From positions 1 to 50,211 of the IMG/VR virus record IMGVR_UViG_3300021404_000018: DNA of 50,211 nt. One strand, 5' to 3'. Each line of letters opens with the position of its first letter. The first letter of the stretch is position 1. Position numbers and translations under genes: made by a program. The notes beneath the pieces are model-generated. The model was given only the letters and a program-made list of their open reading frames with translations, ran no database searches and had not been told where the DNA came from. The stretch is from a virus. Taxonomy: Duplodnaviria; Caudoviricetes. This document shows, piece by piece, positions 1 through 50,211 of this stretch.

Positions 1-148
1 GGACGCCAATGGTTTGTGTGGTTTCGTGGTAGCACACCCGAGCCACATTCGAGCTGTCAGGTGTGTCAGTCCACTTCAAATCAGGTTGTGACATAGCCGT
101 CCCCTTGCTGTTGATAGAGCCCACGCTGACGTGGGTTCGACAAACAGT
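1..148. repeat. Terminal direct repeat, copy 1 (assembly circularisation overlap)
   Basis: Identical to 50064-50211 except position 22 (T) versus 50085 (G). It falls inside the KTSC gene and its leader, so it is probably not a biological terminal repeat. Confidence 0.93.
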
Positions 149-29710: not shown

Positions 29711-29879
29711 CGTCGTAGTACCTCTCATCGAGATAAAAAGTACCGTCATCATTATCGATCCGCTTCCTATCGGGGACGACACGTTGACGGTACTTTGGAG
29801 TTAGCAGGTCGCGGGCGATGTGATTACGCCTGCGCTGTTCACGTTTCTCCTTGTCGGAGAACTTATGCAAGCCTACCAT
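29700..29879 (-). CDS. 59-aa peptide with an ArfA-like core
   Basis: Hand translation MVGLHKFSDKEKREQRRRNHIARDLLTPKYRQRVVPDRKRIDNDDGTFYLDERYYDDDE; overlaps both neighbours and fills the gap. Confidence 0.65.
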   Translation of the reverse strand: MVGLHKFSDKEKREQRRRNHIARDLLTPKYRQRVVPDRKRIDNDDGTFYLDERYYDDDE

Positions 29880-30273
29880 TGACGGCTTCTAGGTCCTTAT
29901 TCTTGGCCTCGTACTCAGCCGGGTTCAGGTGCCATTCTTCCAGATCAAGAAAACGCGCTAGCCACAGTTCGGCATTAGCTCCCTTAGACTGGTCCCAGCC
30001 GGGGAGCAGCGCGATAGCGTCTGCGTGATCGATAATATAATCGAGGTCTTGCCGAATTGCGACGCGGCGATCAAAGACTCCCGTAGCTTCAGCCGCTTTG
30101 ATATCACCAGTCTTGGACTTCCACGAGATGCCCTTCGGGTCATGATCTCGATCCTTCTCAGCAGGGTTGAATACTTCATGTCCGCGAGACCGAAGGAAAG
30201 AAGCAGCCGCATCGAAGGCGGGGAAGTTGAAGTCTTTGATGCCCCTCATGGGGCCAGAGAGATACACCTTCAT
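29863..30273 (-). CDS. DUF4406 / nucleoside 2-deoxyribosyltransferase-like protein
   Basis: VYLSGPM.G...FNFPAF, NPAE, ADAIALLPGW..SKGA.AE. Confidence 0.88.
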   Translation of the reverse strand: MKVYLSGPMRGIKDFNFPAFDAAASFLRSRGHEVFNPAEKDRDHDPKGISWKSKTGDIKAAEATGVFDRRVAIRQDLDYIIDHADAIALLPGWDQSKGANAELWLARFLDLEEWHLNPAEYEAKNKDLEAVNGRLA

Positions 30274-30572
30274 ACGTGTCGTCCTACTCCATCACCTGTC
30301 TTAACCCAGGTGCGATTGCTGTTGATCTCCATCTTCTTGTCGAGTTCGTCTTGCATGTTGCCAGCAAGGTTGTCAACCAGTTGGTAGAGACAGAGCACAA
30401 CATCAGCCGCCTCTTCGAGAATTTTATCGACCTCTACATGCCCTTCGCCAAGGCATTCCGCTTCCAGTTCGTCGAACTCTTCACGGGCCTTGACGATGAT
30501 ACCAAGAGCATTCTCCGGAACTCCGAAGGTTGCTCGACCCCAATCAGCTATTCGCTTTTGATCCCAGGTCAC
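30270..30572 (-). CDS. MazG-like NTP pyrophosphohydrolase (DUF550-like)
   Basis: WG..TFG, EEFDEL, EEAADV, KMEIN..RTW. Confidence 0.82.
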   Translation of the reverse strand: MTWDQKRIADWGRATFGVPENALGIIVKAREEFDELEAECLGEGHVEVDKILEEAADVVLCLYQLVDNLAGNMQDELDKKMEINSNRTWVKTGDGVGRHV

Positions 30573-30873
30573 TTCTGATCCTTAGTTCAGCTCTCGCAAG
30601 AGCATTCCATGCTGTGTGTAGATCGTGGTGAAGGCCTGACTCAGGGTCGATGGGTTCACCTTCCGCCTCGTACATCATGTGCCGTACCATCGCGTCTGAG
30701 TAGCGGGCATGTCCATCAGGCACATGCAACCAGCCGTTCCAGGCGTACTTGGTGGCACCGAAGTCACTTACTTGGCTGACCCCTCGGATCGCTCCGGGGA
30801 AATAGGAGATGGCCCCACGAAAAACGGGGGCCTTTCCTGTGTCGTCCTTACGGGCACCGCTGATTTCAGTCAT
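30544..30873 (-). CDS. dATP/dGTP diphosphohydrolase (DUF5664-like)
   Basis: KDDTGK, FGATKY..NGW, RH, DPESGLHH..H.AWNAL; start reassigned to ATG 30873. Confidence 0.85.
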   Translation of the reverse strand: MTEISGARKDDTGKAPVFRGAISYFPGAIRGVSQVSDFGATKYAWNGWLHVPDGHARYSDAMVRHMMYEAEGEPIDPESGLHHDLHTAWNALARAELRIRSDLGSKANS

Positions 30874-31015
30874 CAGACTGGACACCCAGGAAGTTAGTCG
30901 GATCGTCGATAGGGACAATCATCAGATCAAGTTCTGTCAGACTGTCCTCAAAATCGTATCGGGGAATGCCGCGATCCGCCAGCCAATCATACAGGGCTTC
31001 AATTGGATCGTACAT
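30866..31015 (-). CDS. Small acidic hypothetical protein (49 aa)
   Basis: TAATG overlap with the upstream gene. Confidence 0.6.
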   Translation of the reverse strand: MYDPIEALYDWLADRGIPRYDFEDSLTELDLMIVPIDDPTNFLGVQSDD

Positions 31016-33403: not shown

Positions 33404-33625
33404 TTAGGCCGCAGCCGCCGGAGCGGTAGTGACGGACACGACAACCGGAGCAGCCGTACCAGCCTTGTGTTGGCCAATCGTGGTCAGCGTGTTGATGGCA
33501 TTCGCCTCAGCAGCCTTCAGACTGGCAATGGCCTTAGCCACAGTCGGGACGTTGTGAGCGCCAACAGCGGCCCCCACGACGAACGCGAAGACGCCGATAG
33601 CGACGTCAATAACGATAGTTTCCAT
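33404..33625 (-). CDS. Small membrane-anchored protein (73 aa)
   Basis: N-terminal hydrophobic helix; TAATG overlap with SSB. Confidence 0.7.
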   Translation of the reverse strand: METIVIDVAIGVFAFVVGAAVGAHNVPTVAKAIASLKAAEANAINTLTTIGQHKAGTAAPVVVSVTTAPAAAA

Positions 33626-34086
33626 TACGCGACTTCCTTTTCCCAATCGCCGTCCTGTTCAGGAGCAGCGTCGTTATCTTCCCTAGTCGGGAACTCAGCA
33701 CCTTCGTACGGCACAAGGTTCCAAACCTGGAGGCTCAGAATGTTGGCCGACTTTTGGTTCTTGCCGTATTCGTTGATGGCAAAGTTAACGTTCACCGTGC
33801 TGCCGTTACCGATCTTGGTACGCGGGTTCCACGGTTCGCCGTGATGATCGACCACACGAATAGGAGTATTCGGGCTGCCGTCAACCTTCAGCTCGCGACG
33901 CTTGAACGTCATGAACTTACCATCGCCCTTGTCCTTGATCTTTTCCTTCAGACCTTCGACTTCGAGCTTGTGAGCAGTTTCGTCGTCAATGAAAACGTCA
34001 ATCGACCATTCGCGATGCTTCTTCTCGAAGCCCCAAATGGGTTCACCGATAATCTTCGGCCACTTAGCCTTACCTTGGATCAGCAA
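33625..34086 (-). CDS. Single-stranded DNA-binding protein (T7 gp2.5-like)
   Basis: GKAKW, VVD..G.P....IGNGS.VNV and an acidic tail; has its own promoter. Confidence 0.8.
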   Translation of the reverse strand: MLIQGKAKWPKIIGEPIWGFEKKHREWSIDVFIDDETAHKLEVEGLKEKIKDKGDGKFMTFKRRELKVDGSPNTPIRVVDHHGEPWNPRTKIGNGSTVNVNFAINEYGKNQKSANILSLQVWNLVPYEGAEFPTREDNDAAPEQDGDWEKEVA

Positions 34087-34159: not shown

Positions 34160-34187
34160 ATTATACTCGATACGCGCTCTAAGTCAA
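34160..34187 (-). promoter_or_regulatory. Sigma70 promoter upstream of SSB
   Basis: TTGACT-16 nt-TATAAT. Confidence 0.7.
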
Positions 34188-40234: not shown

Positions 40235-40411
40235 CTAATGCTTTCCCTTGTACAGGCAGACCGTGTAATGCTTAACCGGGAGTGGGGCCGCAGCGATGGC
40301 CTCTTCCGGACTGTCGAACTTGTCCGCCTCCATGGGATCAACACAGCTTCCGAACATCGCGGAAGACTTAACGAGAAGACCAGAGTTGTTGTGGCGTAGG
40401 TAGTATTTCAT
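40235..40411 (-). CDS. Small hypothetical protein (58 aa)
   Basis: Hand translation MKYYLRHNNSGLLVK...; TAATG overlap. Confidence 0.6.
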   Translation of the reverse strand: MKYYLRHNNSGLLVKSSAMFGSCVDPMEADKFDSPEEAIAAAPLPVKHYTVCLYKGKH

Positions 40412-40821
40412 TACAGCTTCCTGTCATGCGCGGGGAAGTTGTCGTCCATGAAGTCCTGAACGAACTGACGTTCCGCTGCGGGAAGGGTTTGGCTCATGTT
40501 GTGGAGACGGGTGCGAATGGCCTTCTCCTGGTTGTACGGATCAGGAAAGAAGTCAACGATGTTGTCACAGCGCTTCATCAGCTCGCTCTGACGAGTGGCC
40601 GAAATGCCCCCAGGGACGGGGAACAGAGGAACAACAGTGCCCTCAGTGGGCTTCGCGGGCAGCACCGGGCCGATGGGCTTCGGGCTGTACCGGAACGACA
40701 CGAACTGACCGTAGATGCGTTGCTCCACAGCGTAACCGTACTTGTTGCAAAGCTTGGACTCAAGATTGAAGGGCAACCCCGGCTTGAACTTGAGCACCCT
40801 GAGGCTGGGCTTACTGGGCAT
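40411..40821 (-). CDS. Hypothetical protein (136 aa)
   Basis: ATG at 40821 with a GGAG RBS, overlapping the ATP-grasp stop. Confidence 0.7.
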   Translation of the reverse strand: MPSKPSLRVLKFKPGLPFNLESKLCNKYGYAVEQRIYGQFVSFRYSPKPIGPVLPAKPTEGTVVPLFPVPGGISATRQSELMKRCDNIVDFFPDPYNQEKAIRTRLHNMSQTLPAAERQFVQDFMDDNFPAHDRKL

Positions 40822-41563
40822 TGGCGAGTTTCTCCAAGGCGTTTGCGTACGCTTCGACTGTTTGTCCTTCAAGCCCGGGCGCAGTATTGACTTCCAGGAC
40901 ATACAGATTTCCCTTCTTGTCTTCAACGATGTCAACAGCGCCGAAGTCCAGCCCGAGGGCCGCGACTGCGCTGATGGCGAGCTTGTCCCGAGCTTCGCTG
41001 GGTTGAATGTTGTTACGCTGAAAGATGAAACCGTTCGCATGGGAGCGAACCTTCCAAGACAAAGGCTCTTGGTCGGGGTCGCGAACCTTCCGCTGAGTGT
41101 CAATGACCTCAGTCTGAGTTGCGTGAACCCGGAACTCTTTGGTCTTGAAGATGTACTTGGTATAAAGAGGAGCCGTGGGTAGCTCGTCATTCTCTTCAAC
41201 TATAACGATACCATCACCGGAGTGTCCTGTCAAGACATTCCGGACAACAATCGTGTTGCCCTTAGCTTGCCATTCCAGAGCAACCGCCTTGTTCTGGGTC
41301 CACGGAACGGTGTCGATGTCCTCACCAGCGAGAGCTGTGAAAGTGTAAATCTTGTTAGAGGCGATGCCAACGGCGGCACAGTTGTTCAGGACCTTCTTGA
41401 AGGCCATAGTGTTGTTGTCTTTGCCTTTGGTCGTGCCCCAGTTCACCAGAACATCGTCCGGCTTGAAGCTCTTGCCCGTCACAAAACGTCTGAACCCCTC
41501 TCCTTGAGAGAGTTCCTTCGCGCTGTTGGACGGGCGTCCTCCGGTGTAAATCCAAATCTTCAA
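40811..41563 (-). CDS. ATP-grasp peptide ligase (RimK/YheCD-like)
   Basis: NWG, GHSGDGI, EFRVH, LDFGAVDI, YVLEVNTAPGL; TTG start overlaps the upstream TGA. Confidence 0.9.
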   Translation of the reverse strand: MKIWIYTGGRPSNSAKELSQGEGFRRFVTGKSFKPDDVLVNWGTTKGKDNNTMAFKKVLNNCAAVGIASNKIYTFTALAGEDIDTVPWTQNKAVALEWQAKGNTIVVRNVLTGHSGDGIVIVEENDELPTAPLYTKYIFKTKEFRVHATQTEVIDTQRKVRDPDQEPLSWKVRSHANGFIFQRNNIQPSEARDKLAISAVAALGLDFGAVDIVEDKKGNLYVLEVNTAPGLEGQTVEAYANALEKLANAQ

Positions 41564-42438
41564 CGGCGAGACCTTTCCGTCCAGGTGGAGCAGTAAGCGA
41601 GGTCTTGGGCGACCCGCATACCGTCCATCAGCATGTTCTCCATGCCAGGGATCGAGAGATATTTGTGGGAGAACGGGCCAAGGGCCAACTTGAGGAATTC
41701 CCGGGGACCACGCGAGCTGAACTGCCGGATGATCTCGGTGGGGTTGGTGTACGTCTTGGCGTGCTGCTTGAGATAGTCCAGCGTGCCAATCCAGTGCATC
41801 AGACGGCCCTCGTGCGTGGTGCACTCAAGCGACCTGAACTCGATGGACCCGAACTTGGTTAGGGAAGTGAAGTTGATCGAGCTGTAACGTTCGGCATTGC
41901 CGCCGAGTTGGAAGAATTGGTGACCACCCTTGATCGAGTTGGTCAGCATCAAGACCTGACCTAGAGCGTCCTTAGCCCGGAGACAGAAGTTGTTGCCAAC
42001 CCGGTGCTCACCGTTCTGGCTCACGAACAGCTCGTCAAGGATCAGAGCCAGTGTGATGAAGTTGTAGATGGTGCGGAGCTTCTCCGTCCCAAAGTTAACG
42101 TGGACGTGAACGGACGTCCGGTACGAGTTGTACACCTTCACCGTGGGTTGGTTCAGGTAGTCGAACAGCGTGGTGACCGCTTCTCTGACCTTTTCCAACG
42201 GCATCGGAGAACGGCACACGAACTCGTACGCATCGTCGCCGGGCTTCAGTTTGCGCAGCGAGTGGTCGTCGATGATGTTCCAGAAAGCGTCCACGGCGTG
42301 AGTGATGTTGCCGAGGTTCTTGCCCTCCACCTCAACCTCGACGCCGAAGCTGTCAGGGTTGTTGAGAGCTTCCCGCTGGATCGGGATGTGATCGGAAAGT
42401 CGCTGGTTCAAATCCATCAGAGCAGTGTATTGGTGCAT
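41560..42438 (-). CDS. Putative amidoligase (Amidoligase_2, glutamine synthetase-like fold)
   Basis: FGVEVEVEG, DHSLR, YEFV, RTSVHVHVN, RYSSIN, GSIEFR. Confidence 0.88.
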   Translation of the reverse strand: MHQYTALMDLNQRLSDHIPIQREALNNPDSFGVEVEVEGKNLGNITHAVDAFWNIIDDHSLRKLKPGDDAYEFVCRSPMPLEKVREAVTTLFDYLNQPTVKVYNSYRTSVHVHVNFGTEKLRTIYNFITLALILDELFVSQNGEHRVGNNFCLRAKDALGQVLMLTNSIKGGHQFFQLGGNAERYSSINFTSLTKFGSIEFRSLECTTHEGRLMHWIGTLDYLKQHAKTYTNPTEIIRQFSSRGPREFLKLALGPFSHKYLSIPGMENMLMDGMRVAQDLAYCSTWTERSRR

Positions 42439-43041
42439 CTAACCCAATGCCTCGTAGAGGGTTTCCTTGAGATATTCGGCTTGTGGGACCAGAACGACAG
42501 GCGTCTTACCACCCACAATACCGATCCCGTTTGCACGATAATAGAGAGGATACGTCTTGTCCTCAGCCTGATAGCCAAGGGCAAAGTCGCGATGCCAAGC
42601 CGCCGTGTGCGCTTTGCCGTCACGCACTTGCTTCTTAGCTTCCTCGAAAGAGGTGTAGTCGTTACGCAACATACTAACATAGCTCTTGTTAAATTGAAAG
42701 CCCGCCTTCGGGTTCACTCCCCAATCTCCGTTAAAGAACCGGAGTTGCTCGGCCTTAAGACCTTGCTGGTACTGCTTGGCGGGACGTCGGTACCACCACG
42801 TAGCAATTCCGGCATGATTGGCATAGCCGATGTTGTAATCCCGATAGCGGAACTGAGGATCGTGAAGATCAACGATCTCAGATGGCTGGTTCAGAGCCGC
42901 GACGGACAGACGAAACGCCTTAGCATCGTCGTCGTCGTGGAAGGCCGTCTTGACGTAGACTGGTTCGTCCTTGTAGTAGCAGATCGTGCCGACGAACTTG
43001 GCTGTGACGTCGTTCAGATTGTCGAACTTAGGCAGCGGCAT
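42439..43041 (-). CDS. Hypothetical protein within the ligase cluster (200 aa)
   Basis: ORF tightly packed between the two ligase genes. Confidence 0.8.
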   Translation of the reverse strand: MPLPKFDNLNDVTAKFVGTICYYKDEPVYVKTAFHDDDDAKAFRLSVAALNQPSEIVDLHDPQFRYRDYNIGYANHAGIATWWYRRPAKQYQQGLKAEQLRFFNGDWGVNPKAGFQFNKSYVSMLRNDYTSFEEAKKQVRDGKAHTAAWHRDFALGYQAEDKTYPLYYRANGIGIVGGKTPVVLVPQAEYLKETLYEALG

Positions 43042-43864
43042 GGAAAGGCAGCGGCTCCAGGTTCAGATCGCACCAGCCGAATTCTTCCGGCCAGTCCGTC
43101 TTGTTGTTGTCGATGACGTCCCTGGCGATGTCGCCATAGGTGTCCTCGGCCCACAGACCGGCGAAACCATCGGCGATGGCCGTTTGGAGGGTGTTATAGA
43201 CCCAACGCATCAGAGGTTCGCTGTCAAGCCAGCGGTTGGAAAGAACGCGGTACTCCAGGCCGTACGACTTGGGACGGAACGCCCCGGCCTTGCCGTACAG
43301 GGACCGGCGAGTGCCGTCCTTGTCCCAGAACAGGGAGTACATCCCGAGGTAGTAATCGAGCTGCCGAGCGACCTTGCAGCACAGCTTGAAGTGCTCGTGG
43401 TCTTCCGGGTCGAAGCCCTCACCCCAGCCGATGTGAAGATGGCCGCTGGCGGTCCGCATCGGTTCCCCTTGTGGGTCCGGGCGGGGGTTCACGTCCTCGG
43501 TCCAGCCGTTGAAGTCGGGCATACAGCCCAGCTCTTGCGCCGAAGACGGGACCTCGAACTTGAAGTAGTCCGCGTTGAAGCGGGCCACGGGCTCGGCGAC
43601 CACGTTGTAGCCGGGAACCATGTCCACCAGCGATTGGCGAACGGCGTGAATGTGATGAACGAACTCGTCAACGGACGTGGCGGGGTCGATGTTGAACTCC
43701 AGCGCCGTGCCATCGACTTGCACAGCGCCGTAGGGCACCTTGAACGGCTCCCACTTGGTTCCGGGGATGCGATCATGGGCGGAAACGAAGTCACCGTTAT
43801 CCGGGTGACGCATGAAGAGTTCGGGATCAGCGCCCACGAGGACGCGATTGGCAGTCACTTGCAT
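43028..43864 (-). CDS. phiEco32-like COOH-NH2 ligase type 2
   Basis: GADPELF, QVDGTALEFN, GCMPDFN, RTASGHLHIG, RRSLYGKAGAFRPKSYGLEYRVLSN. Confidence 0.92.
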   Translation of the reverse strand: MQVTANRVLVGADPELFMRHPDNGDFVSAHDRIPGTKWEPFKVPYGAVQVDGTALEFNIDPATSVDEFVHHIHAVRQSLVDMVPGYNVVAEPVARFNADYFKFEVPSSAQELGCMPDFNGWTEDVNPRPDPQGEPMRTASGHLHIGWGEGFDPEDHEHFKLCCKVARQLDYYLGMYSLFWDKDGTRRSLYGKAGAFRPKSYGLEYRVLSNRWLDSEPLMRWVYNTLQTAIADGFAGLWAEDTYGDIARDVIDNNKTDWPEEFGWCDLNLEPLPFHAAA

Positions 43865-43873
43865 CGGAGTTCC

Positions 43874-44965
43874 TTATGCAACCCACTTGGTGTATTCGTA
43901 TGTGTCAACATCATTGTAACAATCTTCACAAGCGTAAGGAGTATGTTTGTCGATGTGGTGGCCCATCACCTTGATGAACTCACCCCAATTTTGACCGTTC
44001 GCACCGCAAAAGCAGCAGCCTTCTTGCACCATCTGGCTGAAAGCGTCTTTCTTCAGGACCTTGCCACTGATGTCCTTGTACGGAGGACGAAACTTCTTAG
44101 TCGAAGGGCGGGCCATAAAAGGGATTTCGTTGTCCATGTAGTCGCCATAGGCGTAGTCGGTGGAACGAGTGTCCTTCACACCACGCCAGACGGTCGTTGA
44201 ACCCCAGTTCGCGGAGTGCCAGGTCTGGCCTTTCATCTCCACCCGCTCGGGGCTGTCGAACTGTGTCGCGATGGACTTGGGGATTTTCCACGAGTAGTGA
44301 GTGTCCGCCGTGACACTGAAGATGCCGGTGGCACCCTCCTCGGCGGGGATGAACATCTCCTTGTTCCGGCGCGACATAACGTATTCGAGCATCTTCGCTT
44401 CAGACGCCCAGATCAAAGTGCAGCGATCCTTACTGTAGCAGTAGTGCAAGGGGCGAGCGGAGTTGCGCAGGAAGTTCAGGGTGCCGTCCCGTTTGTCGTA
44501 CCAGATCAGGGCCCAAGCGCCGGCGATGATCTCCAGCGTGGCCTTGGCACCGATATCGTTAATCGATGCGAAGATGGCCTCGCTGTCCGTGCCGTACTTC
44601 TCATAGTCCTTGAGCCGCTTCAAGGCCCAGGAGTCGAGGGTGCCGTTGTGCATCCCCACGACATGGCTGAACTTGAACGGGTGGGCGTTAGCCTCGTTCT
44701 TCTCGCCCACGGTGGCGTAGCGGTTGTGGCCGAACAGAGCCTTGACCGAATTGTTCGTCGCGGTCATCTTGTCATACGCCGCTGTGGCGAACAGCTCGAA
44801 CGGATTGCCCGGCCTCTTGGCCAGCTCAAAGATGTCCTTCTCGCGGCTGATCGAGGCTGCGCCGGTGGAGTGCGTACCACGAACGCTGTCCACCATCAAC
44901 AGTTCAGTGAAAAGGTCTTTCCAGGTGAGGTTGCAGTCGCCTGCAATGCCGACTAGTCCGCACAT
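43874..44965 (-). CDS. Class II (Ntn) glutamine amidotransferase with a C-terminal Zn finger
   Basis: MCGLVG (Cys2), RG.HSTG, GHNRYAT, HNGT, TDSE; CCFCG...CEDC. Confidence 0.92.
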   Translation of the reverse strand: MCGLVGIAGDCNLTWKDLFTELLMVDSVRGTHSTGAASISREKDIFELAKRPGNPFELFATAAYDKMTATNNSVKALFGHNRYATVGEKNEANAHPFKFSHVVGMHNGTLDSWALKRLKDYEKYGTDSEAIFASINDIGAKATLEIIAGAWALIWYDKRDGTLNFLRNSARPLHYCYSKDRCTLIWASEAKMLEYVMSRRNKEMFIPAEEGATGIFSVTADTHYSWKIPKSIATQFDSPERVEMKGQTWHSANWGSTTVWRGVKDTRSTDYAYGDYMDNEIPFMARPSTKKFRPPYKDISGKVLKKDAFSQMVQEGCCFCGANGQNWGEFIKVMGHHIDKHTPYACEDCYNDVDTYEYTKWVA

Positions 44966-45330
44966 TAAAGTTCAGTCCTCAGGTCTTCGAAATAGACGGA
45001 GTAAGGGATATCACCCTTATAGGAAACGACGCCCCACTTACGCACATCACCTTCTTCTTGGTGAATGGCGATTAGTGTACGGGGCAAAGTATTGTCGGCG
45101 TACAGTTTGTTACGCCCCTTCGTGTAAACGATATCGCCGACCTTCGGGATAGGTGGCGGAGCCGGAATGATCTCGTTAATTCGGTTGATGCTAATTGAGT
45201 GCATGAACCGACCAGGAGAGTCACAGTCAATGAAATTGAGCTTCAACGTGTCAAATGAACCCGACTTATCAATATCAGCCACAATGGCATGAAGAATAAC
45301 TTTGTCGCCTACCTTAGGCAGTGGCAACAC
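44965..45330 (-). CDS. Hypothetical protein with two PKVGD (KOW/SH3-like) repeats
   Basis: LPKVGDKV and IPKVGDIV. Confidence 0.65.
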   Translation of the reverse strand: MLPLPKVGDKVILHAIVADIDKSGSFDTLKLNFIDCDSPGRFMHSISINRINEIIPAPPPIPKVGDIVYTKGRNKLYADNTLPRTLIAIHQEEGDVRKWGVVSYKGDIPYSVYFEDLRTEL

Positions 45331-45973
45331 GTTGCGTCTCCTTCTGGTAGTGGCGGATCAGCTCGATGCTGAAGTCCGCAAAACGGGAGCCGGGGATGTA
45401 TTCGGGATGTCCCTGAATGCAAAGAGTGGACGTCTTGGGGTACCAGACGATCTCCGTGTCCTTGTGGTGATCGTCGTAGCGGAACTCGGGGAAGTGAGCA
45501 CGTTCGGCGTCCTTCCGCGTGGCAACATCAGCATAGCCCAGCACGACGCCCTCAACACTGGGGCGCATCATCTGGTGGTGCGTTGACGTCACCTCCATCT
45601 GCTCGCCTGTGGGCAGGAACGTCATGAGGTGCGACTGGCCGTGATTGTTCACGTCCTGCCACAGCGTGCCGCCGTTGAGACAGTTGAGAAGCTGAGCCCC
45701 ACGGCAAATCCCCACCTTGAGAACGGCTGGGTCGTGGAACTTGGTGAACACACCGATCTCAGTGGTGTCCCGCTGAGACTGTTCTTCGGGAATGAAACGG
45801 CTGATGGGCTTCTCGCCGTAAATCTTAGTGCCGATGTCAGCACCACCGTTGAACACGATCACCTCGGCGAGTTCCGGGTTGTCCACCGAAGTGAAGCCCG
45901 CCTCTTCGAGTAGTTCCTTCATGCCAGGGTCGGCACCGAAGCGAGTGATCGAATGAAAGGTGATGCTAGTCAT
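45314..45973 (-). CDS. Class I glutamine amidotransferase (peptidase C26 / PuuD-like)
   Basis: GGADI, GICRGAQ (Cys nucleophile), STHHQ, QGHPE (His-Glu); start reassigned. Confidence 0.9.
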   Translation of the reverse strand: MTSITFHSITRFGADPGMKELLEEAGFTSVDNPELAEVIVFNGGADIGTKIYGEKPISRFIPEEQSQRDTTEIGVFTKFHDPAVLKVGICRGAQLLNCLNGGTLWQDVNNHGQSHLMTFLPTGEQMEVTSTHHQMMRPSVEGVVLGYADVATRKDAERAHFPEFRYDDHHKDTEIVWYPKTSTLCIQGHPEYIPGSRFADFSIELIRHYQKETQRVATA

Positions 45974-47000
45974 CATCGTCGAAGTCAGGGAAGTCGTATT
46001 CATCAATGTCCCAATCCGGGGGTTGAGGAGGTTGAACGGGAGCAGCATCGATCTGCTGTGGGAAAACGGGAGGAATGGCATTAAGGTGAACACCACCAGC
46101 CTGCTGATTGGCGATGATCTGAGCCCACGCACCAGCCAAAGGCTGAGGCATAGGATCAACCGCAGGAGCCGCTCCGACCATCTCGTCGTGAATGGCTTGA
46201 TGAAGAGCCTGCCCAGCTTCAATGTCATAAACGTACTTCTTCATCAAACCAGCCTCAGGCGTGAGCCGCTTGCGAGGCTCGGGCTTGGGCTTCAGCTTGA
46301 TGTCAAAAATCTCACCCACCTGACTGTCAGTCAGACGAGCCAACTTGTAGTGAAGATCAGACTTGCCCCAAATCACATTGGCTGGTGTTGTGTTCCAAGG
46401 TGCGTCCCTGAAACTCTTCACCGTCAGATCGGGTGAACCGGCTAGCAGTTTGTGCCAGTCGGCAGCCGGATCGAACCAGAAATGATTGTGGCACGGGAAC
46501 TCGCGCTCCTTCTTGAAGGGCTTGCCAGCCGTGCTGTACGACAGCAGAAAAGAAAAGAACTCCGGATAGCCCTCTTTGACCAGCTCTCTCCAACGCTCGA
46601 AGAGATACGGATACTCGATGGGCACACGGCTAGCAATGCAGAAGTTGAACAAGACATTCGCCGGCCACTTGTCCAGGTGATCCACCTGAATGTAGTAGTC
46701 GTGTTTGTGCTTCTTCAAAGTGATGAGATCGCCGAACGCCCTGAACGGGCCGTGGATGAGCATCCGAATGTAACGTATACTGATCTCGTCGCGCATCGGC
46801 ATGGCTGTGACCAGATGATCATAACCAGCACTGTGGAACCGCATGTCGGCGTGGCACACGGACGCGAGCCGAAGTTTCGGGGGAATGCCCGTATCTTCAG
46901 ACCAAACAAACCAAGACGAGGGAGCAAGGTCCGTCAAGCTTGGGTAAGAAGCGATTAGTTGAAGTAACTCTTTCTCGGGGGGATTGATTTCGTCTGCCAA
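45966..47000 (-). CDS. Hypothetical protein (344 aa), first gene of the ligase operon
   Basis: TTG start with an AAGAAGG RBS downstream of the promoter; Pro-rich and acidic C-terminus. Confidence 0.8.
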   Translation of the reverse strand: MADEINPPEKELLQLIASYPSLTDLAPSSWFVWSEDTGIPPKLRLASVCHADMRFHSAGYDHLVTAMPMRDEISIRYIRMLIHGPFRAFGDLITLKKHKHDYYIQVDHLDKWPANVLFNFCIASRVPIEYPYLFERWRELVKEGYPEFFSFLLSYSTAGKPFKKEREFPCHNHFWFDPAADWHKLLAGSPDLTVKSFRDAPWNTTPANVIWGKSDLHYKLARLTDSQVGEIFDIKLKPKPEPRKRLTPEAGLMKKYVYDIEAGQALHQAIHDEMVGAAPAVDPMPQPLAGAWAQIIANQQAGGVHLNAIPPVFPQQIDAAPVQPPQPPDWDIDEYDFPDFDDDD

Positions 47001-47050: not shown

Positions 47051-47080
47051 ATATGTAATGATATGTAATGATAAGTAGTG
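47051..47080. repeat. Tandem 10-mer x3 (ATATGTAATG, ATATGTAATG, ATAAGTAGTG)
   Basis: Read directly; lies in the AT-rich leader. Confidence 0.8.
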
Positions 47081-47117: not shown

Positions 47118-47145
47118 ATTATAACATGAAATCGGTTGAGGTCAA
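47118..47145 (-). promoter_or_regulatory. Sigma70 promoter for the ligase/replication operon
   Basis: TTGACC-16 nt-TATAAT with an extended -10 TG. Confidence 0.75.
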
Positions 47146-47733: not shown

Positions 47734-47913
47734 TTATTCAGTTATGGGGAACCAAACATCCTCGTAGTCGTAGAAAACAGCCACGTTGTACATCAGCATA
47801 AGATCAACGTGAGTTCCAAGCCACATGATGTAACTCTTGTGGTCCTTGTGGGACGTGAGGAACTCTTTGAACGACCCGTCAGGCTGCTTGCAGCGGACGA
47901 GTGCGGCGATCAC
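47734..47913 (-). CDS. Small hypothetical protein (59 aa)
   Basis: Hand translation MIAALVRCKQPDGSFKEF...; GTG overlaps the upstream TAG. Confidence 0.6.
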   Translation of the reverse strand: MIAALVRCKQPDGSFKEFLTSHKDHKSYIMWLGTHVDLMLMYNVAVFYDYEDVWFPITE

Positions 47914-48158
47914 TAATAGTCGCCGGAAGAGCCGCCGCCCCCGAAATCACCACCACCGCCTGAGAAGTCGGACGACGACGTGTCAGAGGAAGAGGACGAA
48001 CCGGAGTCGAAGATGGACGCGACAGCCTCACCGACAGCGAAGCCAACAGCGGCGCTCGTTGCCGAGTCACCATCATCGTCATCGTCATCATCTTCGGCGA
48101 GCATGCGCCTCCGATTGAACTCTTCGTCCGTCTCACCAGCACGACGAATAATCATCAC
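47913..48158 (-). CDS. Low-complexity Asp/Ser/Gly peptide ending FSGGGGDFGGGGSSGDY
   Basis: GGAG RBS and GTGA overlap; 81 aa. Confidence 0.75.
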   Translation of the reverse strand: MMIIRRAGETDEEFNRRRMLAEDDDDDDDGDSATSAAVGFAVGEAVASIFDSGSSSSSDTSSSDFSGGGGDFGGGGSSGDY

Positions 48159-49884: not shown

Positions 49885-50157
49885 TTACTTCTCGGCCTTG
49901 ATGGCGAGATAGTTGGAGAATTCCATTTCACTCTCCCAACGAGTGTAAGGGAACGCCTTGACCACTGCATTCAGGTATTTCCCAATGCTAGGGGCGTGGA
50001 CAAGGTTCTCATAGACCTCCTCGGGAGCCCCGAGATAGGAATACAGTCCACCACTGACGAATTGGACGCCAATGGTTTGTGTGGGTTCGTGGTAGCACAC
50101 CCGAGCCACATTCGAGCTGTCAGGTGTGTCAGTCCACTTCAAATCAGGTTGTGACAT
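49885..50157 (-). CDS. KTSC domain protein
   Basis: SSNVARVCY...VQFVSGGLYSYLGAPEEVY..L..APSIGKYLN; AAGGGGA RBS. Confidence 0.88.
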   Translation of the reverse strand: MSQPDLKWTDTPDSSNVARVCYHEPTQTIGVQFVSGGLYSYLGAPEEVYENLVHAPSIGKYLNAVVKAFPYTRWESEMEFSNYLAIKAEK

Positions 50158-50211
50158 AGCCGTCCCCTTGCTGTTGATAGAGCCCACGCTGACGTGGGTT
50201 CGACAAACAGT
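50064..50211. repeat. Terminal direct repeat, copy 2
   Basis: Matches 1-148 with one mismatch. Confidence 0.93.

What the first reader, a model, noticed from the sequence alone, without database searches (positions are those of the whole stretch)
40811..47000. Promoter-led operon with two glutamine amidotransferases and three amide/peptide ligases
Seen: gene order is promoter, 344-aa unknown, class I GATase (C26), small protein, class II GATase, COOH-NH2 ligase type 2, 200-aa unknown, amidoligase and ATP-grasp, with the signature motifs intact. Established: similar clusters occur in phiEco32- and LUZ24/PaP3-type podophages; to my knowledge the product is uncharacterised, and cell-wall or peptide modification has been proposed. 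This version has a class I GATase and no gamma-glutamyl cyclotransferase that I can recognise. Inference: a phage biosynthetic pathway of about 6 kb (12% of the genome) making a gamma-glutamyl/amidated peptide, metabolite or protein tag. It might serve superinfection exclusion or anti-defence.
Basis: partly seen in the sequence, partly recalled or inferred. Interest (0 to 1): 0.75.

Follow-up and report, generated by a model that had tools for sequence, protein, structure and literature searches.

The report
Known phage amide-ligase gene cassette
This is an intact copy, in a complete uncultured 50-kb phage, of an enzyme gene cassette that hundreds of phages carry and that was recognised from sequence in 2009, but whose chemical product is still unknown.

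Summary
On the minus strand, behind a near-consensus sigma-70-type promoter (47145-47118), lie nine overlapping or abutting genes (47000-40411).

This is the PA11/TC6 (Zobellviridae)-type arrangement of the phiEco32/LUZ24 amidoligase cassette. TC6 has the same order, class I amidotransferase included. I found no paper that identifies a product. The scan has already noted this cassette 374 times on other DNA.

New here:
- All 21 records compared carry C26, GGCT or both (13, 4 and 4).
- X is a large unnamed family, found next to C26 in 14 of 17 C26 records.
- Y gets only weak complex-prediction support, apparently resting on Amidoligase_2.
- The promoter position recurs in relatives.
- The cassette always sits beside the replication genes.

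Most likely it builds and trims a gamma-glutamyl-type amide or peptide in the cytoplasm; this is inference. Verdict: a new member of a known kind, of modest interest.

The parts
47118..47145 (-). Sigma-70-type promoter-like site TTGACC-16 nt-(TG)TATAAT, 118 nt upstream of the first gene
   Evidence: 11 of 12 matches with TG; sequence read. 12/12 sites lie at a similar distance upstream of the X homologue in L002 and L016. This is a pattern match only; no transcript data.
47051..47070 (-). Tandem 10-nt repeat (CATTACATAT x2) between the -10 box and the ribosome-binding site; possibly an operator
   Evidence: Read directly; not tested further.
45966..47000 (-). X, 344 aa: confident alpha/beta N-domain (1-245), disordered Pro/Gln linker and an acidic, aromatic C-terminal tail (DWDIDEYDFPDFDDDD); family of unknown function
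   Evidence: No Pfam match. AF2 pLDDT 81.9. No PDB fold match at E<=0.001. BFVD hits to CVT22, CW02 and PA11-like proteins. 346 representatives at E<=0.001. Invariant C49 H50 P113 R125 E129 H173 P206 W211 over 43 members. hhalign 96.5-98.5% to TC6_056, CVT22 gp67, BA6 and phiM6_80.
45314..45976 (-). Class I glutamine amidotransferase-fold enzyme of the Peptidase_C26 (gamma-glutamyl hydrolase) type, 220 aa
   Evidence: Pfam 2.9e-13; phrog_7218 1e-32. Aligns with Lin1909 3fij and chains 7d4r/7d53/7d50 ('Probable glutamine amidotransferase'), with the Cys conserved. QGHPE; start.
44965..45330 (-). 121-aa ORFan with an internal PKVGD..V duplication; GTG start behind AAGGAG; an accessory insertion
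   Evidence: No Pfam or PHROG match. Only 2 other clusters in 5.8 billion proteins. Absent from the other 20 records compared.
43874..44965 (-). Ntn (class II) glutamine amidotransferase domain (1-245) plus a Cys/His-rich C-terminal part, 363 aa
   Evidence: GATase_6 1e-17; phrog_4736 2e-69. Cys2, HNRYAT, NAHP and HNG aligned with GlmS 1xff.
43028..43864 (-). COOH-NH2 ligase type 2 (glutamine-synthetase/GCS2-fold carboxylate-amine ligase), 278 aa
   Evidence: PF14395 1.5e-08; phrog_3815 1e-74. tblastn finds 318 phage records. 93 invariant columns in 9 sequences.
42439..43041 (-). Y, 200 aa: mostly beta protein with the conserved motif WWYRRPxKQYQQGL; always lies between the two GS-fold ligases
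   Evidence: phrog_11055 4e-25. Alignment A1. AF2 pLDDT 89.3. Only weak Tudor/SH3 and EF-P-like PDB rows. Detected in 18 of 21 records. Weak complex support.
41560..42438 (-). Amidoligase_2 (glutamine-synthetase-like ligase), 292 aa
   Evidence: PF12224 2e-11; phrog_7469 4e-62. 271 phage records. Invariant E34 E36 E38 H111 H113 R146 E200 R202.
40811..41563 (-). RimK/Ddl-like ATP-grasp ligase, 250 aa, TTG start overlapping the Amidoligase_2 stop
   Evidence: RimK 2.6e-08; phrog_2599 3e-75. Best solved matches are Ddl and RimK. Start.
40411..40821 (-). 136-aa conserved downstream gene of unknown function, overlapping the ATP-grasp stop by 11 nt
   Evidence: Homologues directly after the ATP-grasp gene in 7 IMG/VR genomes. 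No Pfam or PHROG match. Start.

Best explanation
What it is (about 0.95): an intact copy of the phiEco32/LUZ24/PA11-type phage amidoligase cassette, in its PA11/TC6 (Zobellviridae)-type arrangement. It sits in a complete 50-kb uncultured podophage and is probably transcribed from a host-type promoter together with the downstream nucleotide and replication genes.

How it most likely works (about 0.4; inference from family chemistry):
- All nine proteins are soluble and act in the infected cell's cytoplasm.
- The two glutamine-synthetase-fold ligases and the ATP-grasp ligase each activate a carboxylate with ATP and join it to an amine. Together they build a short amide or isopeptide chain on one small acceptor, such as an amine, an amino acid or a peptidoglycan-precursor-like peptide.
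- At least one of these bonds is gamma-glutamyl.
- The Ntn amidotransferase takes ammonia from glutamine to amidate a carboxylate.
- The C26 enzyme, working with its constant neighbour X, removes or trims a gamma-glutamyl group. In other phages GGCT does this step.
- Y is a non-catalytic partner of Amidoligase_2.

What is shown: the genes, their motifs, their conservation and their co-occurrence. What is inferred: substrates, order of steps and product.
For: Family assignments and intact motifs.

Tight packing: overlaps of 1-17 nt, or gaps of 0-9 nt, between all nine genes.

Same gene order in TC6, KZY1, phiM6, CVT22, BA6 and 8 IMG/VR genomes.

Co-occurrence:
- The four enzyme families are present in 21 of 21 records. 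The cr108_1 Amidoligase_2 match is weak (4e-05; Pfam 2.9e-06).
- Genus counts for COOH-NH2 ligase and Amidoligase_2 are nearly the same: 318 and 271 phage records.

Gamma-glutamyl chemistry:
- C26 is the gamma-glutamyl hydrolase family.
- Every one of the 21 records has C26 (13), GGCT (4) or both (4), and none lacks both.

X lies directly upstream of C26 in 14 of 17 C26 records and in 0 of 4 GGCT-only records.

Y with Amidoligase_2: complex prediction gave weak support. Median score 0.60 (runs 0.69, 0.00, 0.60), best of 3 controls 0.00. That mark was reached by 58 of 80 solved complexes and 2 of 110 mismatched pairs, but a score of 0.60 or under by only 7 of the 80 and by both mismatches. Partner pLDDT was at least 78 and run agreement at least 0%. 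The control that replaced Amidoligase_2 scored 0.00.

No 19-residue window is hydrophobic enough for a membrane segment, apart from one stretch in the ATP-grasp at 1.91.
Against: - No product, substrate or phenotype is known for any copy, and I found none in print.
- The Iyer et al. 2009 paper that defined the cassette is not held. I know it only through citations and recall.
- The C26 match covers only profile positions 60-138 of 219. A glutaminase that feeds ammonia to X cannot be told apart from a gamma-glutamyl hydrolase.
- X and Y have no known fold relatives.
- The complex result is weak by the tool's own calibration, and one of its three runs scored 0.00.
- The 21 records fall into only some 6-8 lineages, so the C26/GGCT pattern rests on few independent events.
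- Y was not detected in 3 of 21 records.
- X was not detected in 3 of 17 C26 records.
- The constant position beside the replication genes would also fit a nucleic-acid target.
Confidence: 0.55

Rival explanations
1. Protein tagging. The ligases add glutamate or a short peptide to a protein, as RimK does to ribosomal protein S6 or PafA does with Pup. Candidate substrates are Y, the acidic tail of X, or a host protein. The C26 enzyme would trim the tag.
For: - The ATP-grasp's nearest named families are RimK and Ddl.
- Y is a small, conserved, non-enzyme-like beta protein lying between the ligases, with an invariant Gln-rich loop (QYQQG). It gets weak predicted binding that depends on Amidoligase_2.
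- X in this lineage ends in an acidic tail.
- PMC4431377 argues that phage ATP-grasp ligases may modify proteins (passage read).
Against: - The acidic tail is missing from most X relatives. Many representatives are only 200-260 aa, and 11 of 15 distinct X proteins in my loci lack it.
- The C-terminus of Y is not conserved.
- Three different ligases plus two amidotransferases are more than known tagging systems need.
- Similarity to RimK is confined to the ATP-binding core.
Confidence: 0.2
2. Nucleotide or DNA modification. The cassette builds an amino-acid-type adduct on a base or on a nucleotide precursor, coupled to replication.
For: - The cassette lies directly upstream of the primase/helicase and polymerase genes in every record examined. 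In the crAss-like phage cr108_1 it sits between the primase and uracil-DNA glycosylase.
- In the window there is no convincing terminator, and no strong promoter, between 47145 and 34187. ThyX, primase/helicase and polymerase may therefore be co-transcribed with it.
- Lee et al. [quoted passage not shown]
- X's tail is acidic with aromatic residues, and about 11 of 37 relatives end in DF. From memory, this resembles SSB and T7 gp2.5 tails.
Against: - The genome has no HMUDK_hel match.
- Pfam scans of 28 minus-strand ORFs between 29,081 and 50,187 found no kinase, glycosylase-like or transglycosylase family.
- DNA of the cassette-bearing LUZ24-like phage U17 was sensitive to 11 of 16 restriction enzymes, the most of the four phages tested (PMC11945000, passage read). 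This is indirect and concerns a distant relative.
- In small podophages all early genes lie in one arm, so adjacency means little.
- The phage's own gp2.5-like SSB does not share X's tail.
Confidence: 0.12
3. Cell-wall modification for superinfection exclusion. This is the 2009 proposal as later papers cite it: the ligases make unusual peptide bonds in the peptidoglycan stem peptide.
For: - PMC10580990 and PMC11945000 attribute this proposal to Iyer et al. 2009 (passages read).
- The ATP-grasp matches D-Ala-D-Ala ligases as well as it matches RimK.
- Stem peptides contain a gamma-glutamyl bond and an amidated carboxylate (textbook knowledge).
Against: - There is no experimental support in any paper I found.
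- The cassette holds no Mur-ligase, transpeptidase, flippase or membrane protein.
- It occurs in strictly lytic phages, where lasting wall remodelling has little time to act.
- It overlaps the main explanation, which allows a wall precursor as the acceptor.
Confidence: 0.1

Closest known systems
Amidoligase cassette of Pseudomonas phages PA11/TC6 (Zobellviridae, Paundecimvirus), TC6_056 to TC6_048
   Same: Same gene order: X-family protein, C26 amidotransferase, Ntn amidotransferase, COOH-NH2 ligase, Y, Amidoligase_2, ATP-grasp. No GGCT in the whole record. Lies upstream of the primase/helicase gene.
   Different: Proteins are only 25-54% identical. There is no DNA match. X is recognisable only by profile (tblastn found nothing). 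TC6 has two other small ORFs where the window has the 121-aa ORFan, and a 449-aa gene where the window has the 136-aa gene.
phiEco32/Kuravirus and LUZ24/PaP3/UFV-P2 (Bruynoghevirus, Vicosavirus) cassette; Pfam PF14395 is named after it. Iyer et al. 2009 is known to me only through citations and recall.
   Same: COOH-NH2 ligase, a roughly 190-205-aa protein, Amidoligase_2, Ntn amidotransferase and ATP-grasp on one strand, upstream of the primase/helicase gene.
   Different: These phages have GGCT and no C26 in the whole record, and no detectable X. The amidotransferase follows the ligases, and their enzymes are larger (486-563-aa amidotransferase, 291-400-aa ATP-grasp).
Bacterial gamma-glutamyl amine pathways that pair a GS-like ligase with a C26 hydrolase (Puu/Spu type; recalled, not tested)
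   Same: A glutamine-synthetase-fold ligase occurs together with a Peptidase_C26 enzyme. The solved matches to the window's C26 enzyme, after Lin1909, are chains named 'Probable glutamine amidotransferase' (7d4r and relatives).
   Different: Those are catabolic pathways with oxidoreductases. The phage set has three ligases, an extra Ntn amidotransferase, and X and Y. No substrate is known.
RimK (ribosomal protein S6 glutamate ligase) and D-Ala-D-Ala ligase
   Same: ATP-grasp core with the Mg/ATP motif LEVN.
   Different: Similarity is weak (E about 4e-4 to 1e-3) and limited to about 45 residues. Nothing indicates the same substrate.

Membership tests
phiEco32/LUZ24/PA11-type phage amidoligase cassette | COOH-NH2 ligase type 2 (PF14395) gene | tested here: met
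   34.7 bits against a cut-off of 25; over the cut-off in the genome search.
phiEco32/LUZ24/PA11-type phage amidoligase cassette | Amidoligase_2 (PF12224) gene on the same strand, separated from the first ligase by a roughly 200-aa gene | tested here: met
   44.6 bits against a cut-off of 22. Y lies between them, and this layout is seen in 18 of 21 records.
phiEco32/LUZ24/PA11-type phage amidoligase cassette | Ntn (class II) glutamine amidotransferase with an N-terminal Cys | tested here: met
   GATase_6 at 64.7 bits; the protein starts MCG and aligns with GlmS.
phiEco32/LUZ24/PA11-type phage amidoligase cassette | RimK-like ATP-grasp ligase | tested here: met
   RimK at 34.1 bits against a cut-off of 21; phrog_2599 3e-75.
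phiEco32/LUZ24/PA11-type phage amidoligase cassette | Gamma-glutamyl cyclotransferase (AIG2/GGCT) gene | tested here: not met
   No match in the whole genome. This feature is optional: 13 of 21 cassette-bearing records lack it, and all 13 have C26 instead.
phiEco32/LUZ24/PA11-type phage amidoligase cassette | Position in the early/replication arm, upstream of the primase/helicase gene | tested here: met
   Primase/helicase at 37683-36040 and polymerase at 36046-34214 lie downstream on the same strand.
Peptidase_C26 / class I glutamine amidotransferase | Cys-His-Glu triad | tested here: met
   Cys in GICRG aligns with the Cys of 3fij; QGHPE is near the C-terminus. Activity cannot be tested here.
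Peptidase_C26 / class I glutamine amidotransferase | Acts as a gamma-glutamyl hydrolase and not as an ammonia-donating subunit | not testable with these tools
   The match covers only profile positions 60-138 of 219. Constant adjacency to X (14 of 17 records) would fit either role.
Thymidine hypermodification clusters (5-HMUDK plus aGPT-Pplase) | 5-hmU DNA kinase (HMUDK_hel, PF18723) | tested here: not met
   No match at E<=0.1 in the complete genome. The aGPT-Pplase families were not searched, because the accession I recalled turned out to be another family (ADDT), which is also absent.
Zobellviridae (taxonomic placement of the phage) | Shared core genes and genome layout with members | tested here: inconclusive
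   The best COOH-NH2 ligase hits, and the same cassette order, are in Zobellviridae records. No capsid, portal or terminase tree was made.

The most novel reading that the evidence does not exclude
The cassette works on DNA or nucleotides at the replication fork. X together with the C26 enzyme would be a new two-subunit amidotransferase: X would be the acceptor subunit, with the invariant Cys-His...Arg...Glu...His site. In this lineage X would be tethered to the replisome by its acidic, aromatic-tipped, SSB-like tail. The three ligases would then build an amino-acid-type adduct on a base or nucleotide.
Probability: 0.07. Interest if true: 0.85.

Novelty: new member of a known kind. Interest (0 to 1): 0.3.

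Why it matters
The cassette takes up about 13% of this genome. Its COOH-NH2 ligase is found in 318 of 50,697 phage records, from E. coli, Pseudomonas, Vibrio, Aeromonas and Proteus phages to crAss-like gut phages. No paper I found identifies what it makes. Solving it would probably reveal a new phage-made metabolite or modification.

This window adds no new kind of system, and it is less convenient for experiments than cultured relatives such as PA11/TC6, CVT22, LUZ24 and phiEco32. The comparisons made here do narrow what to test:
- C26 and GGCT look like alternative ways of doing one required step.
- X goes with C26.
- Y may go with Amidoligase_2.

Tried and rejected
Searches that found nothing:
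- Near-identical DNA in the phage collection: none.
- tblastn of X against phages: no match at E<=1e-5. X homology to TC6, CVT22, BA6 and phiM6 shows only by profile.
- Foldseek against PDB for X and Y: nothing at E<=0.001. Y has only weak Tudor/SH3 and EF-P/eIF5A rows, which I do not rely on.
- ESM Atlas: uninformative, because its own models of both proteins are poor.
- Pfam on 43 X-family members, and a PDB profile search: nothing.
- Profile searches of the PDB with the two GS-fold ligases: only chance rows.

Ideas rejected or left unsupported:
- 'C26 simply replaces GGCT' is rejected as stated. CW02, phiM6, QDWS535 and one IMG/VR genome have both. What survives is the weaker 'at least one of the two'.
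- 'X is universal in the cassette' is not supported. hhalign finds no X in UFV-P2, PAA2, Paul, Aeromonas 4_4572, cr108_1 or QDWS535. Foldseek against BFVD does list weaker hits to Aeromonas and Cronobacter phage proteins.
- X's tail as a copy of the phage's own SSB tail: the gp2.5-like SSB ends differently.

Other:
- Sequencing runs: no RNA holder listed. Three soil-metagenome runs hold 5-9% of the sampled words. I did not lay reads on them, so they say nothing about habitat.
- Supplements of papers were closed. Figure S3 of PMC11945000 (restriction digests) and the annotation tables of several phage papers could bear on the DNA-modification rival, and I did not see them.
- Rows dropped before counts: IMG/VR contigs 3300029993_000022, 3300031233_000027 and 3300029951_000120, whose cassette proteins are identical to those of G001 or G002. 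Loci L019-L023 duplicate other loci.

Full report
**What the window is.** It is a single virus record of 50,211 bases that CheckV rates 100% complete. Its last 126 bases repeat positions 23-148. Structural genes (terminase, portal, scaffold, capsid and tail) lie on the plus strand up to about 26.9 kb. Replication and nucleotide-metabolism genes lie on the minus strand from 27.2 kb to the end: ribonucleotide reductase, polymerase with a separate exonuclease, primase/helicase, Cas4-like nuclease, ThyX, endonuclease I, a dATP/dGTP pyrophosphohydrolase pair, and a DUF4406 protein that PHROGs calls a nucleoside 2-deoxyribosyltransferase. No tRNA was found.

**The observation.** On the minus strand, in order:

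| Gene | Coordinates | Size | Assignment |
|---|---|---|---|
| X | 47000-45966 | 344 aa | no Pfam match |
| C26 | 45976-45314 | 220 aa | Peptidase_C26-type class I amidotransferase |
| S121 | 45330-44965 | 121 aa | ORFan |
| GAT2 | 44965-43874 | 363 aa | Ntn (class II) amidotransferase |
| CNL | 43864-43028 | 278 aa | COOH-NH2 ligase type 2 |
| Y | 43041-42439 | 200 aa | unknown |
| AL2 | 42438-41560 | 292 aa | Amidoligase_2 |
| AGR | 41563-40811 | 250 aa | RimK/Ddl-like ATP-grasp |

- I revised two starts by comparison with relatives: C26 at ATG 45976, and the ATP-grasp at TTG 41563, which gives MKIWIY... like the relatives' MTIWIY.
- Neighbouring genes overlap by 1-17 nt or are 0-9 nt apart. 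This is what translational coupling in one transcription unit looks like.
- Catalytic signatures are intact:
  - the C26 Cys in GICRG, and QGHPE;
  - Cys2, HNRYAT, NAHP and HNG in the Ntn enzyme;
  - LEVN in the ATP-grasp;
  - invariant acidic, His and Arg columns in both GS-fold ligases.

**Promoter and transcription unit.**
- A TTGACC-16 nt-TGtTATAAT site (11 of 12 matches) lies at 47145-47118, in the 166-nt gap before X.
- Promoter-like sites as a class are not enriched in the region (6 against 5.2 expected).
- Perfect 12/12 sites lie 117-130 nt upstream of the X homologue in two related IMG/VR genomes, and about 1 kb upstream in a third. The position is therefore conserved.
- Between this site and the next strong minus-strand site at 34187 I see no convincing terminator. 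The unit may run on through ThyX, primase/helicase and polymerase.
- All of this is pattern evidence. No RNA run holding the region was listed.

**Relatives.**
- There is no near-identical DNA in 50,697 phage records.
- By protein, record counts in that collection are:
  - the COOH-NH2 ligase in 318 records and Amidoligase_2 in 271, with almost the same genus counts (Escherichia 94 and 93; Vibrio 22 and 21; Aeromonas 11 and 11; Proteus 8 and 8);
  - C26 in 56;
  - Y in 20 at E<=1e-3;
  - X in none at E<=1e-5.
- The best ligase hits (about 54% identity) are Zobellviridae: PA11/TC6/O4 and oyster-metagenome phages.
- TC6 has the same gene order, class I amidotransferase included.
- I compared 21 distinct records in detail: the window, 12 named phages and 8 IMG/VR genomes. 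I used iterated profile searches over all ORFs and whole-record family searches.
- The four enzyme families are present in 21 of 21 records; the cr108_1 Amidoligase_2 is weak. Y is present in 18 of 21. It was not detected in cr108_1, nor in UFV-P2 and PAA2, which have an unassigned 186-189-aa gene at the same place.

**Literature.**
- Searches found no experimental identification of a product.
- PMC10580990 and PMC11945000 (passages read) repeat the proposal of cell-wall modification and superinfection exclusion, and attribute it to Iyer et al. 2009. That paper is not held.
- PMC3890496, PMC6209634 and PMC3517423 (passages read) only list the genes.
- The scan's own notes hold 374 earlier findings of this cassette in at least 322 genomes. 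One is a Zobellviridae-type copy with the same verdict.

**What the comparisons add.**

1. *C26 and GGCT.* The window has no GGCT anywhere. Across the 21 records, 13 have C26 only, 4 have GGCT only, 4 have both and none lacks both. C26 is therefore not a simple replacement for GGCT, but some gamma-glutamyl-cleaving enzyme seems to be required. The records fall into only 6-8 lineages, so this is suggestive and not a statistical result.

2. *X goes with C26.* X lies directly upstream of C26 in 14 of 17 C26-bearing records. A BFVD fold hit points to a 503-aa CW02 protein outside my locus. X is not detected in the 4 GGCT-only phages.
   - X belongs to a sizeable unnamed family: 346 representatives at E<=0.001 among 1.84 billion proteins.
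   - It has no Pfam or PDB relative.
   - Its N-domain is confidently predicted.
   - C49, H50, P113, R125, E129, H173, P206 and W211 are invariant over 43 diverse members, which looks like an active or metal site.
   - In this lineage only, X has a disordered linker and an acidic, aromatic tail.

3. *Y.* It is confidently predicted (pLDDT 89.3) as a mostly beta protein with no clear fold relative. Complex prediction with both GS-fold ligases gave weak support. The median score was 0.60 (runs 0.69, 0.00, 0.60) against a best control of 0.00. By the tool's calibration, scores this low are more often wrong than right unless the pairing was likely beforehand. The control that replaced Amidoligase_2 fell to 0.00, which points to that ligase as the partner.

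4. *Accessory genes.* The 121-aa ORFan is an insertion peculiar to this phage, with only 2 other clusters in 5.8 billion proteins. The 136-aa downstream gene is shared with 7 IMG/VR relatives.

5. *Position.* The cassette always lies next to the replication genes. In a 101-kb crAss-like phage it sits between the primase and uracil-DNA glycosylase.

**Mechanism.**
- The family chemistry is established: GS-fold and ATP-grasp ligases form amide bonds through acyl-phosphates, Ntn amidotransferases release ammonia from glutamine, and C26 and GGCT enzymes cleave gamma-glutamyl bonds.
- From that, and from the absence of membrane segments, I infer cytoplasmic, stepwise assembly, amidation and trimming of a gamma-glutamyl-type amide or peptide on a small acceptor. 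I put this at about 0.4.
- Protein tagging (about 0.2) fits the RimK likeness and the scaffold-like Y. It is weakened because X's tail and Y's C-terminus are not conserved.
- A nucleotide or DNA target (about 0.12) fits the genomic position and the remark of Lee et al. 2021 that genes matching amidoligase and glutaminotransferase domains accompany thymidine-hypermodification genes. Against it:
  - the genome has no HMUDK_hel;
  - the 28 minus-strand ORFs scanned hold no other modification family;
  - DNA of a cassette-bearing LUZ24-like phage was cut by 11 of 16 restriction enzymes.
- The 2009 cell-wall idea (about 0.1 as a specific claim) has no experimental support, and no wall-enzyme partner lies in the cassette.

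**Verdict.** The finding is real and was read correctly, but it is a new copy of a known, widespread and still unsolved cassette, in an arrangement already present in cultured phages. Novelty: a new member of a known kind. Interest is modest at 0.3. The open question is old and worth solving, but this window makes it no more testable than cultured relatives do.

Noticed in passing
window 41205-41233 (-); L002 12510-12538; L016 11802-11830; L026 15741-15769: A promoter-like site (TTGACA-17 nt-TATCGT/TATTGT/TATTAT, 10-11 of 12 matches, mostly with TG) recurs inside the ATP-grasp gene, about 400 nt before its stop, in the window and in three relatives. It could be an internal promoter for the downstream gene, or only a by-product of conserved codons.
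   Followed up: partly
window 47051-47070: Perfect tandem 10-nt repeat (CATTACATAT x2, minus strand) between the -10 box and the ribosome-binding site of the first cassette gene; a possible operator.
   Followed up: no
window 29863-30918 (-): Three adjacent small genes: dGTP_diPhyd_N (7e-20), MazG-like/dATP-dGTP pyrophosphohydrolase (1e-4) and DUF4406, which PHROGs calls a nucleoside 2-deoxyribosyltransferase (4e-18). Together they form a purine dNTP-handling set. No PurZ-type gene was looked for.
   Followed up: no
window 1-148 and 50086-50211: The last 126 bases repeat positions 23-148. IMG/VR classes the record as linear, and CheckV rates it 100% complete. This may be an assembly overlap or a short terminal redundancy.
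   Followed up: partly
window 33625-34086 (-): A 153-aa protein with a weak match to Gp2.5-like ssDNA-binding proteins (phrog_112, 1.6e-05), preceded by the only other 11/12 promoter-like site on the minus strand (34187-34160).
   Followed up: no
window 44965-45330 (-): The 121-aa ORFan contains two copies of a PKVGD(K/I)V... segment, so it may be an internal duplication of a small beta domain. It is inserted between the two amidotransferase genes in this phage only.
   Followed up: partly
L011 (Aeromonas phage 4_4572) 14043-17181: In this phage the cassette is followed by genes annotated as ribose-phosphate pyrophosphokinase and nicotinamide phosphoribosyltransferase. From memory, this pair resembles a phage NAD+ salvage route. 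The adjacency may be chance.
   Followed up: no
window 47913-48158 (-) and 49885-50187 (-): An 81-aa ORF made of Asp runs and Gly/Ser-rich low-complexity sequence, and a KTSC-domain protein (6.5e-17), lie among the early genes upstream of the cassette.
   Followed up: no
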